This document shows, one piece after another, positions 40,920 to 56,387 of a stretch of 64,000 nucleotides of DNA (its first letter is position 1; each line of letters opens with the position of its first letter). A program made the translations under genes and the position numbers. This DNA is from the human T2T-CHM13v2.0 reference genome, Homo sapiens. Location: assembly GCF_009914755.1 (NCBI RefSeq), contig NC_060934.1. One strand, given 5' to 3'. The notes beneath the pieces were generated by a model that did not search any database, had not been told where the DNA came from, and saw only the letters and a program-made list of their open reading frames with translations.

Positions 40920-43900
40920 GTAACTGAATATGAAATTAGTTATAATTTTGAGAGCATGGTTATCTCATATGAATAAAATTTTAATTGCTTATAACATTAA
41001 ATAATGAAATAAATTTGTAGCGCTGTCCTAATTCCATCAATTTTGGAATACAGTTCAAAATGAGATGTAGCAAGTAAGAAATACAAATTGTATTTCTCAT
41101 TAATAATCATAAGCCATATATAATATCTGTTGTCTATAATTCCAATGATAAACACTTACTGTTTTCAGAGAAGTTCTAGGTAATACACACTCAACCTTCT
41201 ATAAGCTATCTTAACTTTTTTATTTTTCTGGCATAAACTATGTGTCTATCTTTTTTTAAAAAAATTACACTTTAAGTTCTGGGATATATGTGCAGAAAGT
41301 GCAGGTTTGTTAAATAGGTATACACGTGCCATGGTGGTTTGCTGCACCCTTCAACCCGTCATCTACATTAGGTATTTCTCCTAATGCTATCCCTCCCCTA
41401 GGCCCCCACCCACTGACAGGCCCTGGTGTGTGATGTTCCCCTCCCTGTGCCCATGTATTCTCATTGTTCAATTCCTACTTAGGAGTGACAACATGCAGTG
41501 TTTGGTTTTCTATCCCTGTAATAGTTTGCTGAGAATAATGGTTTCCAGCTTCATCCATGTCCCTCCAAAGGACGTGAACTCATCCTTTTTTATGGCTGCA
41601 TAGTGTTCCATGGTATATATGTGCCACATTTTCTTTATCCAGTCTATCATTGATAGGCATTTGGGTTAATTACCAGTCTTTGCTATTGTGAACAGTGCTC
41701 CCATAAACATATGTGTGCATGTGTCTTTATAGTAGAATGATTTATAATCCTTTGGGTATATACCTAGTAATGGGATTGCTGGGTCCAATGGTATTTCTGG
41801 TTCTACATCCTTGAGGAATTGCCACACTGTCTTCCACAATGGTTGAACTAGTTTACATACCCATCAACAGTGTAAAAGCCTTCCTATTTCTCCACGTCCT
41901 CTCCAGCATCTGTTGTTTCCTAACTTTTTAAAGATAGCCATTCTAACTGGCGTGAGATGGTATCTCATTGTGGTTTTGATTTGCACTTCTCTAATGACCA
42001 CTGATGATGAGCTTTTTTGAATGTGTTTCTTGGCCGCATAAATGTCTTCTTTTGAGAAATATCTGTTCATATCCTTCACCCACGTTTTGATGGGGTTGTT
42101 TGTTTGTTTCTTGTAAATTTGTTTAAGTTCCTTATAGATTCTGGATGTTGGCCCTTTGTCAGATGGATAGGTTGCAAAAATCTTCTCCCATTCAGTGGGT
42201 TGCCTGTTCACTCTGATAATAGTTTCTTTTGCTGTGCAGAAGCTCTTTAGTTCAAATTAGATCCCATTTGTCAATTTTGGCTTTTGTTGCCATTGCTTTG
42301 GGTGTTTCAGTCACAAAGTCCTTGCCCATGCCTATGTCCTGAATGGTATTGCCTAGGTTTTCTTCTAGGGTTTCTATGGTTTTAGGTCTAACACTTAAGT
42401 CTTTAATCCATCTTGAATTAATTTTTGTATAAGGTGTAAGGAAGGGGTCCAGTTTCAGTTTTATGCATATGGCTAGCCAGTTTTCCCAACACCATTTATT
42501 AAATATAAAATCTTTTCCCCATTGCTTGTTTTTGTCAGGTTTGTCAAGATCAGATGGTTGTAGATGTGTGGTGTTATTTCTAAGGCCTCTGTTCTGTTCC
42601 ATTGGTCTATATATCTGTTTTGGTACCAGTACCATGCTGTTTTGGTTACTGCAGCCTTGTAGTATAGTTTGAAGTCAGGTAGTGTGGTGCTTCCAGCTTT
42701 GTTCTTTTTGCTTAGAATTGTCTTGGCTATGCAAGCTCTTTTTTGGTTCTGTATGAAATTTAAAGTCGTTTTTTCTAATTCTGTGAGGAAAGTCAGTGGT
42801 AGCTTGATGGGGATGGCATTGAATCTATAAATTACTTTGGGCATAATGGCCATTTTCATGATATTGATTTCTCCTATCCAAGAGCACGAAATGTTTTTCC
42901 ATTTGTTTGTGTCCTCTCTTATTTCCTTGAGCAGTGGTTTGTAGCTCTCCTTGAAGAGGTCCTTCACATCCCTTGTAAGTTTTATTCCTAGGTATTTTAT
43001 TCACTTTGTAGAAATTGTGAATGGGAGTTCACTCATGATTTGGGTCTCTGTTTGCCTATTATTGGCATATAGGAATGCTTGTGATTTTTGCGCATTGATT
43101 TTGTATCCTGAGACTTTGCTGAAGTTGCTTATCAGCTTAAGGAGATTTTGACCTGAGACAATGGGGTTTTCTAAATATACAATCATGTCATCTGCAAACA
43201 GAGACAATTTGACTTCCTCTCTTCCTATTTGAATATGCTTTATTTCTTTCTCTTGCCTGATTGCCCTGGCCAGAACTTCCAATACTCTGTTGAATAGGAG
43301 TGGTGAGAGAGGGCATCCTTGTCTTGTGCCAGTTTTCAAAGGGAATGCTTCCGGTTTTTGTCCATTCAGTGTGATGTTGGCTGTGGGTTTGTCATAAATA
43401 GCTCTTACTATTTTGAGATACGTTCCATCAATACCTAGTTTATTGAGAGTTATTAGCATGAAGCGGTGTTGAATTTTGTTGAAGGCCTTTTCTGCATCTA
43501 TTGAGATATTCATGGGTTTTGTCGTTGGTTCTGTTTAGGTGATGAATTACGTTTATTGATTTGCATATGTTGAACCAGCCTTGCATCCCAGGTATGAAGC
43601 CGACTTGATCATGGTGGATAAGCTTTTTGATGTGCTGCTGGATTCGGTTTGCCAGTCTTTTATTGAGGATTTTTGCATTGATATTCATCAGGGATATTGG
43701 CCCCAAATTTTCTTTTTTGTTGTGTCTCTGCCAGGTTTTGGTATCAGGATGATGTTGGCCTCATAAAATGAGTTAGGGAGGAGTCCCTCATTTTCTATTG
43801 TTTGGAATAGTTTCAGAAGGAATGGTACCACCTCCTCTTTGGACCTCTGGTAGAATTCAGCTGTGAATCCGTCTGGTCCTGGGCTTTTTTTGGTTGGTAG

Positions 43901-53510: not shown

Positions 53511-56387
53511 TTTTTTTTTTTTTTAAATCCTTTAAGTTCTAGGGTACATGTGCACAATGTGCAGGTTTGTTACATAGGTATACATGTGCCATGTTGGTTT
53601 GCTGCACCCATCAACTCGTTATTTACATTAGGTATTTCTCCTAATGCTATCCCTCCCCCAGCCCTCCACCCACCGACAGGCCTCGGTGTGTGATGTTCCC
53701 TGCCCTGTGTCCAAGTGTTCCCACTGTTCAATTCCCACCTATAAGTGAGAACATGTGGTGTTTGGTTTTCTGTCCTTGTGATAGTTTGCTGAGGATAATG
53801 GTTTCCAGCTTCATGCATGTCCCTGCAAAGGACATGAACTCATCCTTTTTTATGGCTGTATAGTATTCCATGGTGTATATATGCCACATTTTCTTAATCC
53901 AGTCTATCACTGATGAATATTTGGGTTGGTTCCAAGTCTTTGCTATTGTGAATAGTGCTGCAATAAACATACGTGTGCATGTGTCTTTATAGTAGCATGA
54001 TTTATAATCCATTGGATATATACCCAGTAATGGGGTTGCTGGATCAAATGGTATTTCTGCTTCCAGACCCTTGAGGAATTGCCACACTGTCTTCCACAAT
54101 GGTTGAAGTAATTTACACTCCCACCAACAGTGTAAAAGCATTCCTGTTTCTCCACATCCTCTCCAGCATCTGTTGTTTCCTGACTTTTTAATGACTGCCA
54201 TTCTAACTGGCGTGAGATGGTATCTCATTGTGATTTTGATTTGCATTTCTGTGATGACCAGTGATGATGAGCATTTTTTCATGTGTCTGTTGGCTGCATA
54301 AATGTCTTCTTTTGAAAAGTGTCTGTTCATATCCTTTCCTGACTTTTTCATGGGGTTGCTTTTTCTTGTAAATTTGTTTAACTTCTTTGTAGATTCTGGA
54401 TATTAGCCCTTTGTTAGATGGGTAGATTGCAAAAATTTTTTCCCATTCTGTAGGTTTCCTGTTCACTCTGATGGTAGTTTCTTTTGCTGTGCAGAAGCTC
54501 TTTAGTTTAATTAGATCCCATTTGTCTATCTTGGCTTTTGTTGCCATTGCTTTGGGTGTTTGGGTAATGAAGTCTTTGCCCATGCCTATGTCCTGAATGG
54601 TATTACCTAGGTTTTCTTCTAGTGTTTTTATGGTTTTAGGTCTAACATTTAAGTCTTTAATTCATCTTGAATTAATTTTTGTATAAGGTGTAAGGAAGGG
54701 ATCCAGTTTCAGCTTTCTACATATGGCTAGCCAGTTTTCCCTGCACCATTTACTAAATAGGGAATCCTTTCTTCACTTCTTTTTTTTTTTTTGGTCAGGT
54801 TTGTCAAAGATCAGATGGTTGTAGATGTGTGGTGTTATTTCTGAGGCCTCTGTTCTGTTCCATCGGTCTATATATCTGTTTTGGTACCAGTACCATGCTC
54901 TTTTGGTTACTGCAGCCTTGTAGTATAGTTTGAAGTCAGGTAGCATGATGCTTCCAGTTTTGTTCTTTTTGCTTAGAATTGTCTTGGCACTACAAGCTCT
55001 TTTTTGGTTCTGTATGAAATGTAAAGTAGTTTTTTCCAATTCTGTGAGGAAAGTCATTGGTAGCTTGATGGGGATGGTATTGAATCTATAAATTACCTTG
55101 GGCAGTATGGCCATTTTCATGATATTGATTCTTCCTATCCATGAGCATGGAATGTTCTTCCATTTGTTTGTGTCCTCTTATTTCCTTGAGCAGTGGTTTG
55201 TAGTTCTCCTTGAAGAGGTCCTTCACATCCCTTGTAAGTTGGATCCCTAGGAATTTTATTCTCTTTGTAGTAATTGTGAATGGAAGTTCACTCATGATTT
55301 GGGTCTCTGTTTGTCTATTATTGGTGTATAGGAATGCTTGTGATTTTTGCACATTGATTTTGTATCCTGAGACTTTGCTGAAGTTTTTTATCAGCTTAAG
55401 GAGATTTGGGGCTGAGACAATGGGGTTTTCTAATAAACAATCATGTCATCTTCAAACAGGGAAAATTTGACTTCCTCTTTTCCTAATTGAATACCCTTTA
55501 CTTCTTTCTCTTGCCTGATTGCCCTGGCCAGAACTTCCAACACTATGTTGAATAGGAGTGGTGAGAGAGGGCATCCCTGTCTTGTGCCAGTTTTCAAAAG
55601 GAATGAATGCTTCCAGTTTTTGCCCAGTCAGTATGATATTGGCTGTGGGTTTGTCATAAATAGCTGTTATTATTTTGAGATACATTCCATCAATACCTAG
55701 TTTATTGAGAGTTTTTAGCATGAAGGCTGTTGAATTTTGTTGAAGGCCTTTTCTGCATCTATTGAGATAATCATGTGGTTTTTGTAGTCGGTTCTGTTTA
55801 TGTGATGGATTATGTTTATTGATTTGCATATGTTGAACCAGCCTTGCATCCCAGGGATGAAGCCTACTTGATTGTGGTGGCCAAGCTTTTTGATGCGCTG
55901 CTGGATTCGGTTCACCAGTATTTTATTGAGGATTTTCTCATCGATGTTTATCAGGGATATTGGTCTAAAATTCTCTTTTTTTGTTGTGTCTCTGCCAGGC
56001 TTTGGTATCAGGATGATGCTGGCCTCACAAAATGAGTTAGGGAGGATTCCCTCTTTTACTATTGATTGGAATAGTTTCAGAAGGAATGGTACCAGCTCCT
56101 CTTTGTACCTCTGGTAGAATTCGGCTGTGAATGTGTCTGATCCTGGACTTTTTTTGGTTGGTAGGCTATTAATTATTGCCTCAATTTCAGAGCCTGATAT
56201 TGGTCTATTCAGAGATTCAACTTCTTCCTGGTTTAGTCTTGGGAGGGTGTATGTGTCCCGGAATTTATCCATTTCTTCTAGATTTTCTAGTTTATTTGCG
56301 TAGAGGTGTTTATAGTATTCTCTGATGGTAGTTTTTATTTCTGTGGGATCAGTGGTGATATCCCCTTTATCATCTTTTATTGCTTCT
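53511..56387 (-). mobile_element. 5'-truncated (~2.9 kb) L1PA6-like element
   Basis: ORF2 RT/C-terminal remnants and 3'UTR; TSD CTAAATAGA.AT.TTTC at 53494-53510 and 56388-56404. Confidence 0.95.

What the first reader, a model, noticed from the sequence alone, without database searches (positions are those of the whole stretch)
42290..55310. Two neighbouring L1s of different subfamilies share a cluster of unusual mutations: likely patchy non-allelic gene conversion
Seen: the L1PA7-like (41253-47743) and L1PA6-like (53511-56387) copies lie in the same orientation 12.26 kb apart. They share at least 8 substitutions absent from the L1PA3-like copy in this window: 42300/54554 (ctttGgg), 42652/54913 (KAAVTK vs KATVTK), GS vs GG (tgcTtccag), ttagAatt, cAAgctc, 42750-1/55011-2 (FIQNQK vs FIWNQK), 42787/55048 (TFLTEL vs TFFTEL) and 43044/55303 (QTETQ vs QTESQ). 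Interleaved sites still differ between the copies (ggggtcc/gggatcc, attactttg/attaccttg, ttctaatt/tccaatt), and their 3'UTRs are of different types. Inference: a W-to-Q change at a conserved ORF2p residue is unlikely in an active source element, so post-insertion sequence exchange in short tracts is the best explanation. That would make the pair a recombining direct repeat and a possible substrate for a ~12.3-kb NAHR deletion or duplication.
Basis: partly seen in the sequence, partly recalled or inferred. Interest (0 to 1): 0.8.

Follow-up and report, generated by a model that had tools for sequence, protein, structure and literature searches.

The report
Old gene-conversion patch between neighbouring L1s
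Two decayed L1 retrotransposons 12 kb apart in a CTNNA3 intron share a roughly 140-280 bp patch that one most likely copied from the other long ago, which is a real but ordinary kind of event with no sign of present-day consequence.

Summary
Both L1s lie on the minus strand, 12.26 kb apart. A (41251-47743) is full length. B (53511-56387) is 5'-truncated and has its own target-site duplication.

Comparison with the L1PA3-like copy alone proves little: at 36 of 59 A=B≠C sites the shared state is simply the majority state among 61 unlinked copies.

A core signal survives. In A 42652-42787, B carries 7 of A's 11 rare states (permutation p 5e-5; 57 control copies reach at most 4). None is at a CpG site. 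No unlinked copy of 75 carries the set 42652C+42691T+42716A+42787G. The 28-mer 42732-42759 occurs only in A and B in the 3.1-Gb genome.

A and B are sisters inside the patch. Outside it, an A+B clade is rejected (p-AU 0.008).

Best reading: an old, discontinuous, A-to-B non-allelic gene conversion.

The W-to-Q codon is inherited in A from a minor source branch (6 unlinked lineage copies). The pair is now a poor NAHR substrate, with a longest identical run of 43 bp. The outlying sites 42300 and 43044 are not above background.

The parts
41251..47743 (-). L1 copy A: full length (about 6.5 kb), older ORF2 lineage, inferred donor of the patch
   Evidence: Pfam finds RVT_1 at 43004-43534(-) (E 1.8e-27) and the three ORF1p domains at 45496-46071(-). 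Poly-T lies at the low-coordinate end. Flanking 13-base direct repeats CTATGTGTCTATC (41238-41250) and CTATATGTCTATC (47744-47756). Outside the patch, A forms a clade with the 4 lineage copies L010, L067, L018 and L011 (SH-aLRT 99).
53511..56387 (-). L1 copy B: 5'-truncated (2.9 kb), a different lineage, an independent insertion, inferred recipient
   Evidence: Poly-T run at 53511-53524 and its own target-site duplication. B carries A's lineage state at only 7 of 40 lineage-diagnostic sites. Its nearest copies outside the patch are L003, L002 and L043.
53495..53510 (.). Left target-site duplication of B (TAAATAGACATGTTTC)
   Evidence: Matches 56389-56404 at 14 of 16 bases.
56389..56404 (.). 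Right target-site duplication of B (TAAATAGAAATTTTTC)
42652..42787 (-). Core of the exchanged patch in A (minimum extent). The maximum extent is 42514-42795.
   Evidence: Shared rare states at 42652, 42691, 42716, 42734, 42750, 42751, 42758 and 42787. Seven of 12 consecutive informative sites are shared, permutation p 5e-5. Bounds come from the non-shared A-rare sites 42506-42513, 42582 and 42796.
54913..55048 (-). The same patch in B (recipient). It is interrupted at 54989 and 55037, where B keeps non-A states.
   Evidence: B's mean identity to 60 other copies falls to 0.88-0.90 here, against 0.93-0.95 in neighbouring windows, and A becomes its best partner of 62. The lineage sites 42728 and 42776 were not transferred.
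42732..42759 (-). 28-mer that holds four of the shared variants, including the W-to-Q codon (42749-42751); identical at B 54993-55020
   Evidence: Exact matches in the 3.1-Gb genome: 2, namely A and B. Nine unlinked places match with 1 mismatch. The reversed control pattern matches 0 times.
25944..27246 (-).
   Evidence: 90.3% identical to A over 1306 columns. Its 39 best unlinked hits are all 97% identical, so it is a much younger subfamily.

Best explanation
After B inserted 12.26 kb from the older full-length L1 A, in the same orientation, a homologous-repair event used A as template. It copied a short stretch of ORF2 sequence into B. The stretch is at least 136 bp (A 42652-42787) and at most about 280 bp (42514-42795). 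It lies about 100 codons downstream of the Pfam RT match.

The stretch carried two kinds of variant. Some belong to A's source branch (42750T/42751G, which is the W-to-Q codon, and 42758A). Others A had acquired after its own insertion (42652C, 42691T, 42716A, 42787G and probably 42734A).

Transfer was discontinuous: B keeps its own state at the lineage sites 42728 and 42776. This fits patchy mismatch repair of heteroduplex DNA, or template switching.

The event is old, because the two copies have since accumulated 12 differences in 202 bp of the patch.

Shown here: the shared variants are confined to this pair, they are clustered, the trees are locally incongruent, and B moves towards A's lineage inside the patch. 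Inferred: the mechanism (double-strand-break repair or non-crossover conversion), that it was a single event, and the age.
For: (1) Clustering. There are 162 sites where A's state is held by at most 10% of 57 non-lineage copies. B has A's state at 13 of them (controls: mean 3.3, maximum 11). Seven of the 13 fall in 12 consecutive sites, 42582-42787. Permutation p is 5e-5, and the best window of any of the 57 controls holds 4.

(2) Pair-only haplotype. None of 75 unlinked copies carries 42652C+42691T+42716A+42787G together, and each of these states is seen in only 2-5 scattered copies. The 75 are the 61 nearest to A or B over 1.35 kb, the 9 nearest to the 28-mer, and 5 of the best-scoring unlinked 161-bp hits. 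The exact 28-mer occurs only in A and B genome-wide.

(3) Not hypermutable sites. None of the shared sites is a CpG site in the majority context. The changes are a mix of T>C, C>T, G>A, A>G and C>A, so there is no editing signature.

(4) Local best partners. In the 150-bp windows 42615-42814, A and B are each other's best partner of 62. In most other windows A ranks among B's most distant partners, and over all columns outside 42500-42900 it ranks 61st of 62. With B's 161-bp patch as genome query, A is the single best hit of the 40 scored.

(5) Trees. Inside the patch A+B are sisters (SH-aLRT 92), and B's next neighbours are the A-lineage copies L076, L077, L067 and L018. Outside the patch (2661 columns) A groups with its lineage (99), and holding A+B together costs 69.9 lnL (p-AU 0.008).

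(6) Direction. 42750T/42751G/42758A occur in unlinked copies that carry A's lineage states at flanking sites. B lacks those flanking states at 42447-42489 and 42836-42983. Only B's identity to other copies drops inside the patch.

(7) Independent insertion. B has its own target-site duplication and poly-A tail.

(8) Fit with known conversion. The tract length agrees with human non-crossover tracts (mean 55-290 bp, range 100-1000 bp), and patchy discontinuous repair is described (passages of PMC4404656). Conversion between repeat copies is favoured by proximity (passage of PMC6598467).
Against: A and B are only 93-94% identical inside the patch: 11 mismatches in 161 bp and 12 in 202 bp. With A's patch as query, three unlinked copies tie with B at 242 bits.

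Support for the A+B sister branch is 92, below the tool's 95 mark, on only 210 columns.

Two lineage sites inside the patch were not transferred, so a simple continuous tract does not fit.

B's private-variant density inside the patch (0.030 per bp) equals that outside (0.032 per bp). This requires a very early event or incomplete replacement.

B's closest unlinked relative L002 also has 42652C and 42751G. L069, which is not of A's lineage, has the TG codon. So some of the shared states do recur independently.

The sample of unlinked copies is small: 75 out of more than 14,000 first-look candidates. A second k-mer scan across 42688-42727 was not run.

No GC bias: 3 weak-to-strong against 5 strong-to-weak changes.

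No orthologous sequence from another primate was available.
Confidence: 0.8

Rival explanations
1. Common descent of the segment. Both copies, or B's source, derive from a rare or chimeric L1 source element that already carried the whole haplotype, and their closeness on the chromosome is coincidence.
For: Part of the haplotype is a source-branch trait: 42750T/42751G/42758A occur in 6 unlinked lineage copies. Only 75 unlinked copies were inspected.
Against: 0 of 75 unlinked copies carries the four pair-only variants together. The exact 28-mer is found only in A and B. Outside the patch B lacks 33 of 40 A-lineage states, and an A+B clade is rejected. Two carriers landing 12 kb apart in 3.1 Gb by chance is very unlikely (inference).
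Confidence: 0.08
2. Parallel mutation: the shared states arose independently in A and B at mutable sites.
For: Each shared state is also seen in 2-7 of the 61 unlinked copies. The isolated shared sites outside the core are within the background of the controls.
Against: None of the shared sites is a CpG site. Seven shared states in 12 consecutive informative sites gives permutation p 5e-5, and the controls reach at most 4. As partner of B, A shares 7 rare states; the next best partner shares 4 and the median partner shares 1.
Confidence: 0.04
3. The exchange ran B-to-A, or both ways in several events, rather than once from A to B.
For: For the four pair-only variants, direction cannot be read from the sequence alone. 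A departs from its lineage at 42321, 42390, 42417 and 42815 and there has the majority state, which B shares at three of the four (42390, 42417, 42815).
Against: The lineage copy L075 shows the same departures at 42390, 42417 and 42815, so they are probably inherited. Inside the patch the pair sits next to A-lineage copies, and only B loses identity to its relatives.
Confidence: 0.06
4. Assembly artefact: reads from the two L1s were mixed.
For: None was found.
Against: The copies differ at about 10% of positions, including 11 mismatches inside the 161-bp patch, so they are easy to tell apart. The shared sites are interleaved with private ones, which a collapse would not produce.
Confidence: 0.02

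Closest known systems
Non-allelic gene conversion between neighbouring Alu copies (Aleshin and Zhi 2010, seen only as cited in a passage of PMC6598467)
   Same: Short-tract homogenisation between nearby dispersed retrotransposon copies of different subfamilies. Proximity matters: the passage reports raised rates within 10 kb.
   Different: Here the repeats are L1 ORF2 sequences, 12.26 kb apart, about 10% diverged today. This is a single fossil event rather than a genome-wide trend.
Gene conversion among human LTR elements (PMC4921805; search listing and start of abstract only)
   Same: Ectopic conversion between interspersed retroelement copies, inferred within one genome.
   Different: A different element class. 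That paper's methods were not read.
Gene conversion that involves L1 elements
   Same: L1 copies can act as donors or recipients in repair-associated conversion.
   Different: As recalled, those cases concern young human-specific L1s or induced breaks in mouse cells. This is an old event between two long-dead copies.
Complex, discontinuous non-crossover tracts in human meiosis (PMC4404656; abstract and passages)
   Same: The tract length range (55-290 bp mean, 100-1000 bp range) and the patchy pattern, attributed there to discontinuous heteroduplex repair or template switching.
   Different: Those are allelic events with GC bias (68%). This one is ectopic and shows no GC bias (3 against 5).

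Membership tests
LINE-1 retrotransposon insertions | ORF1p and ORF2p reverse-transcriptase coding remnants | tested here: met
   In A, RVT_1 at 43004-43534(-) and Transposase_22, Tnp_22_dsRBD and Tnp_22_trimer at 45496-46071(-). B aligns to A's ORF2 and 3' end over 2863 columns.
LINE-1 retrotransposon insertions | Poly-A tail and target-site duplication for each copy, showing independent insertion | tested here: met
   B has a 16-base duplication matching at 14 of 16 bases, plus a poly-T run. A has a 13-base duplication matching at 12 of 13.
L1PA7 (A) and L1PA6 (B) subfamily names | Best match to the Dfam or RepeatMasker subfamily consensus | not testable with these tools
   No repeat library is available. 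What was shown: A and B belong to different lineages (B has 7 of 40 A-lineage states; trees). A's nearest unlinked copies are 92% identical, B's are 93% and C's are 97%.
Non-allelic (ectopic) gene conversion | Local tree incongruence: the paralogues are sisters inside the tract and not outside it | tested here: met
   Sisters with support 92 inside the tract. Outside it the A+B clade is rejected, p-AU 0.008. They are reciprocal best partners only in the windows 42615-42814.
Non-allelic (ectopic) gene conversion | Clustered shared derived variants that are confined to the pair | tested here: met
   0 of 75 unlinked copies has the four-variant set. The 28-mer is unique to the pair. Clustering p is 5e-5.
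Non-allelic (ectopic) gene conversion | Recipient differs from its own orthologue in species that split before the event | not testable with these tools
   No other primate genome is held.
Non-allelic (ectopic) gene conversion | Non-reciprocal transfer, with the donor unchanged | tested here: inconclusive
   A keeps its lineage states in and around the tract. A's departures at 42390, 42417 and 42815 are shared with L075, so they do not show a return transfer.
NAHR substrate for a 12.3-kb deletion or duplication | Long stretch of uninterrupted identity between direct repeats (recalled threshold of roughly 200 bp or more in mammals) | tested here: not met
   The longest identical run is 43 bp (42640-42682) and overall identity is 90.1%.
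NAHR substrate for a 12.3-kb deletion or duplication | A known copy-number variant with breakpoints in A and B | not testable with these tools
   No structural-variant catalogue is available. One paper search on CTNNA3 intronic deletions gave nothing specific to this place.
Source sub-lineage haplotype | The variant set occurs together in several unlinked copies | tested here: not met
   Met only for 42750T/42751G/42758A (6 unlinked lineage copies). Not met for 42652C+42691T+42716A+42787G (0 of 75).

The most novel reading that the evidence does not exclude
The three sub-patches (42652-42716, 42734-42758, 42787), and perhaps the isolated shared sites from 41412 to 43058, are the fossil of one long heteroduplex between two already diverged L1 paralogues that was repaired patchily and without GC bias soon after B inserted. 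If so, the complex, discontinuous non-crossover events seen between alleles in human pedigrees also act ectopically between neighbouring L1s. They would also move subfamily-diagnostic ORF2 codons, here a W-to-Q change from a minor but once active L1 branch, into unrelated copies.
Probability: 0.25. Interest if true: 0.35.

Novelty: new member of a known kind. Interest (0 to 1): 0.25.

Why it matters
It is a clean, well-controlled single case showing that neighbouring L1 fossils of different lineages exchanged a short stretch of sequence. Such patches can mislead subfamily assignment and divergence-based dating of individual copies, and they can mimic 'shared mutations'.

It also shows that the ORF2 W-to-Q variant was carried by a source branch that produced several copies.

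It has no visible functional consequence. The site is deep in a CTNNA3 intron. The two copies are now too diverged to be a likely substrate for recurrent deletion or duplication.

Tried and rejected
(1) A second patch in the opposite direction (B to A) at 42321-42417, plus 42815. A departs from its lineage there, but the unlinked lineage copy L075 shows the same states at 42390, 42417 and 42815, so this is probably inherited.

(2) The isolated shared sites 41412, 41537, 41799, 42300, 43044 and 43058 as further patches. Each is hemmed by non-shared informative sites within 3-70 bases. Six shared of 151 sites is within the range of the controls. This is not excluded, but it is not supported either.

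(3) CpG hypermutability or an editing signature. None of the sites is CpG, and the changes are of mixed types.

(4) B as retrotransposed progeny of A. This is rejected: B lacks 33 of 40 lineage states, and the clade is rejected outside the patch.

(5) On the short flanks alone (582 columns) the AU test did not reject A+B (p 0.405). Only the full 2661 columns did. Placing B inside A's lineage clade was not rejected (p 0.137).

(6) Pfam on the open piece that holds the patch (42476-43000, minus strand) found 0 families.

(7) Limits on data.
- C's relatives were therefore never aligned.
- The pattern scan does not take a window reference, so a second k-mer scan over 42688-42727 was not done.
- Khan et al. 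2006 on L1PA ages is not held. The only age statements seen were about 30 Myr for L1PA7 and about 40 Myr for L1PA8, in passages of preprint 10.1101/2021.04.06.438727.

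
Full report
What is there.

The window is an intron of CTNNA3. Self-BLAST shows a 2.86-kb same-orientation match between A 41270-44117 and B 53530-56382 at 89.8%. MAFFT gives 2578 of 2860 identical positions and 35 gap columns.

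Both elements are on the minus strand.

A (41251-47743) is full length. Pfam finds RVT_1 at 43004-43534(-) and the three ORF1p domains at 45496-46071(-). A is flanked by a 13-base duplication matching at 12 of 13 bases.

B (53511-56387) is 5'-truncated. It has a poly-T run and its own 16-base target-site duplication matching at 14 of 16 bases (53495-53510 and 56389-56404). So B is an independent insertion, not a segmental copy of A.

Checking the observation.

Every cited position is a site where A=B and the L1PA3-like copy C (25944-27246) differs. All ten cited motifs are at corresponding places.

A three-way comparison cannot tell 'unusual' from 'ancestral'. Of 1328 three-way columns, 74 are A=B≠C, 58 are B=C≠A and 47 are A=C≠B.

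I therefore fetched unlinked L1 copies from the same genome. These were 28 of the best hits to A 42100-43450 and 33 of the best hits to B, giving 61 after removing 5 duplicates and the two self hits. This choice is biased towards copies that resemble A or B, which is conservative.

Neither A nor B appears among the other's 40 best 1.35-kb hits. A is 91.0% identical to B there and 88.5-92.1% identical to the unlinked copies.

Of 59 A=B≠C sites in 42129-43433, 36 carry the state of at least half of the 61 copies. A subset is rare: 42300G 0 of 61; 42652C, 42691T, 42716A and 43044G 2 each; 42750T 3; 42751G and 42787G 4; 42758A 5; 42734A 7. No unlinked copy has more than 6 of 15 tracked states, and those are the commoner ones.

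Is it more than chance?

Over the whole 2.87 kb (63 sequences), A and B share 8 states that at most 3 other copies hold. The mean over 1952 other pairs is 1.1. Sixteen pairs reach 8, and the 15 top pairs listed all involve A or copies that share many rare states with it (L010, L067, L018, L011). As partner of B, A shares 7 rare states; the next partner shares 4, and the distribution is 0:23, 1:10, 2:20, 3:7, 4:1.

Taking the 162 sites where A's state is held by at most 10% of 57 non-lineage copies, B has A's state at 13 (controls: mean 3.3, maximum 11). Seven of them lie in 12 consecutive sites, 42582-42787 (permutation p 5e-5). No control exceeds 4 in such a window.

None of the shared sites is a CpG site in the majority context, and the changes are of mixed types.

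In 150-bp windows from 42615 to 42814, A and B are reciprocal best partners of 62. In most other windows A ranks among B's most distant partners, and over all columns outside 42500-42900 it ranks 61st of 62.

Genome-wide check.

The 28-mer 42732-42759 is identical in B and holds 42734A, 42750T, 42751G and 42758A. It has two exact matches in 3.1 Gb, namely A and B. Nine matches with one mismatch lie on nine other chromosomes, and the reversed control matches nowhere.

I fetched those nine (L069-L077). Seven carry the TG that makes the W-to-Q codon. Six of these seven (L070, L072, L073, L075, L076, L077) also carry A's lineage states at flanking sites: 42459T, 42465G, 42728T, 42836T and mostly 42447G, 42896T and 42983T.

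So in A the Q codon is inherited from a minor source branch that made several copies. CG intermediates (an R codon, with a CpG on the plus strand) occur in 4 of the 61 copies. That suggests a W to R to Q path; this is inference.

With B's patch as query, A is the single best hit of 40 scored from 3904 candidates. With A's patch as query, B ties with three unlinked copies.

Lineages and direction.

A shares about 40 diagnostic states with L010, L067, L018 and L011 along the 2.87 kb. B has A's state at 7 of the 40.

Outside the patch (2661 columns) A plus these four copies form a clade (SH-aLRT 99), and B sits with L003, L002 and L043. Holding A+B together costs 69.9 lnL (p-AU 0.008). Placing B inside the lineage clade is not rejected (p 0.137).

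Inside the patch (210 columns) A+B are sisters (92), and B's next neighbours are the A-lineage copies L076, L077, L067 and L018. On the short 582-column flanks the AU test has no power (p 0.405).

B's mean identity to other copies falls to 0.88-0.90 in the patch, from 0.93-0.95 in neighbouring windows, whereas A's stays in its usual range.

Together with the branch-specific TG and 42758A, this points to transfer from A to B.

Anatomy and age.

The minimum extent is 42652-42787 (136 bp). Non-shared A-rare sites at 42582, 42506-42513 and 42796 bound it to 213-282 bp.

Inside the patch B keeps non-A states at the lineage sites 42728 and 42776.

A and B differ at 12 of 202 positions in 42586-42787, against 9.9% overall.

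Of A's 6 non-lineage rare states in the patch (excluding the branch codon), 4 are shared and 2 are not. B's unshared rare-state density is 0.030 per bp inside and 0.032 per bp outside. By inference the event was early in B's residence, on the order of 10-25 million years ago. This uses recalled substitution rates and the 'about 30 Myr' figure for L1PA7 seen in passages of 10.1101/2021.04.06.438727, and the numbers are small.

An early event is expected, because the copies were then most alike.

What is not supported.

The isolated shared sites (41412, 41537, 41799, 42300, 43044, 43058) are each hemmed by non-shared informative sites. As a set (6 of 151) they are not above the controls.

A candidate return patch at 42321-42417 is explained by the lineage copy L075 showing the same states.

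The longest uninterrupted A/B identity is now 43 bp, so the pair is a poor substrate for homologous crossover. The threshold of roughly 200 bp is recalled.

There is no GC bias: 3 weak-to-strong against 5 strong-to-weak changes.

Comparison with what is known.

Non-allelic gene conversion between dispersed repeat copies is established. It is favoured by proximity and identity: a passage of PMC6598467 cites raised rates for Alu pairs within 10 kb. It is also reported for LTRs (PMC4921805; listing and abstract only). L1 examples are recalled from memory only.

Tract lengths of 55-290 bp (mean) or 100-1000 bp (range), and patchy, discontinuous repair, are described for human non-crossovers (passages of PMC4404656).

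This case is therefore a new member of a known kind.

I found no paper on this locus. Supplements were not consulted.

Verdict.

The exchange is real, from A to B, old, short and discontinuous. The W-to-Q argument, the wider extent and the NAHR risk are not supported. Interest is low to moderate.

Noticed in passing
window 25857-28192: The L1PA3-like copy is in two pieces of opposite orientation that meet at about 27243-27246. 25944-27246 aligns with A 42129-43433 on the same strand, and 27243-28075 aligns with A 41264-42104 inverted. This is the pattern expected of a 5' inversion by twin priming (name recalled). Its 39 best unlinked hits are all 97% identical.
   Followed up: no
window 41199-41231 and 47752-47785: Besides the 13-base duplication next to A, a longer similar stretch (CTATCTTAAC followed by a T-rich run and TTCTGG) lies upstream of A's left flank and directly after its right flank. 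This could be a longer or compound target-site duplication, with 19 extra bases at the 3' end.
   Followed up: no
unlinked loci L070, L072, L073, L075, L076, L077 and window 42749-42751: This is a minor L1 branch with a W-to-Q codon about 100 codons downstream of the Pfam RT match. At least 7 copies carry it, counting A. Copies with CG (an R codon) at the same place occur in 4 of 61 copies, and two copies (L071, L074) have TA, which reads as a stop.
   Followed up: partly
window 54788-54793: B has a private 6-base insertion (TTTTTG) that is absent from A and from all 61 unlinked copies. It lies just left of the exchanged patch.
   Followed up: no
window 54989-54992: B has three private or differing bases within 4 positions (A 42728, 42729, 42731), which looks like one multi-base mutation inside the patch.
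   Followed up: no
window 53460-53494: The sequence just left of B's target-site duplication looks like an Alu fragment (GATTACAGGTGTGAGCCACTGTGCCCG; the resemblance is recalled), so B may have inserted next to or into an Alu.
   Followed up: no
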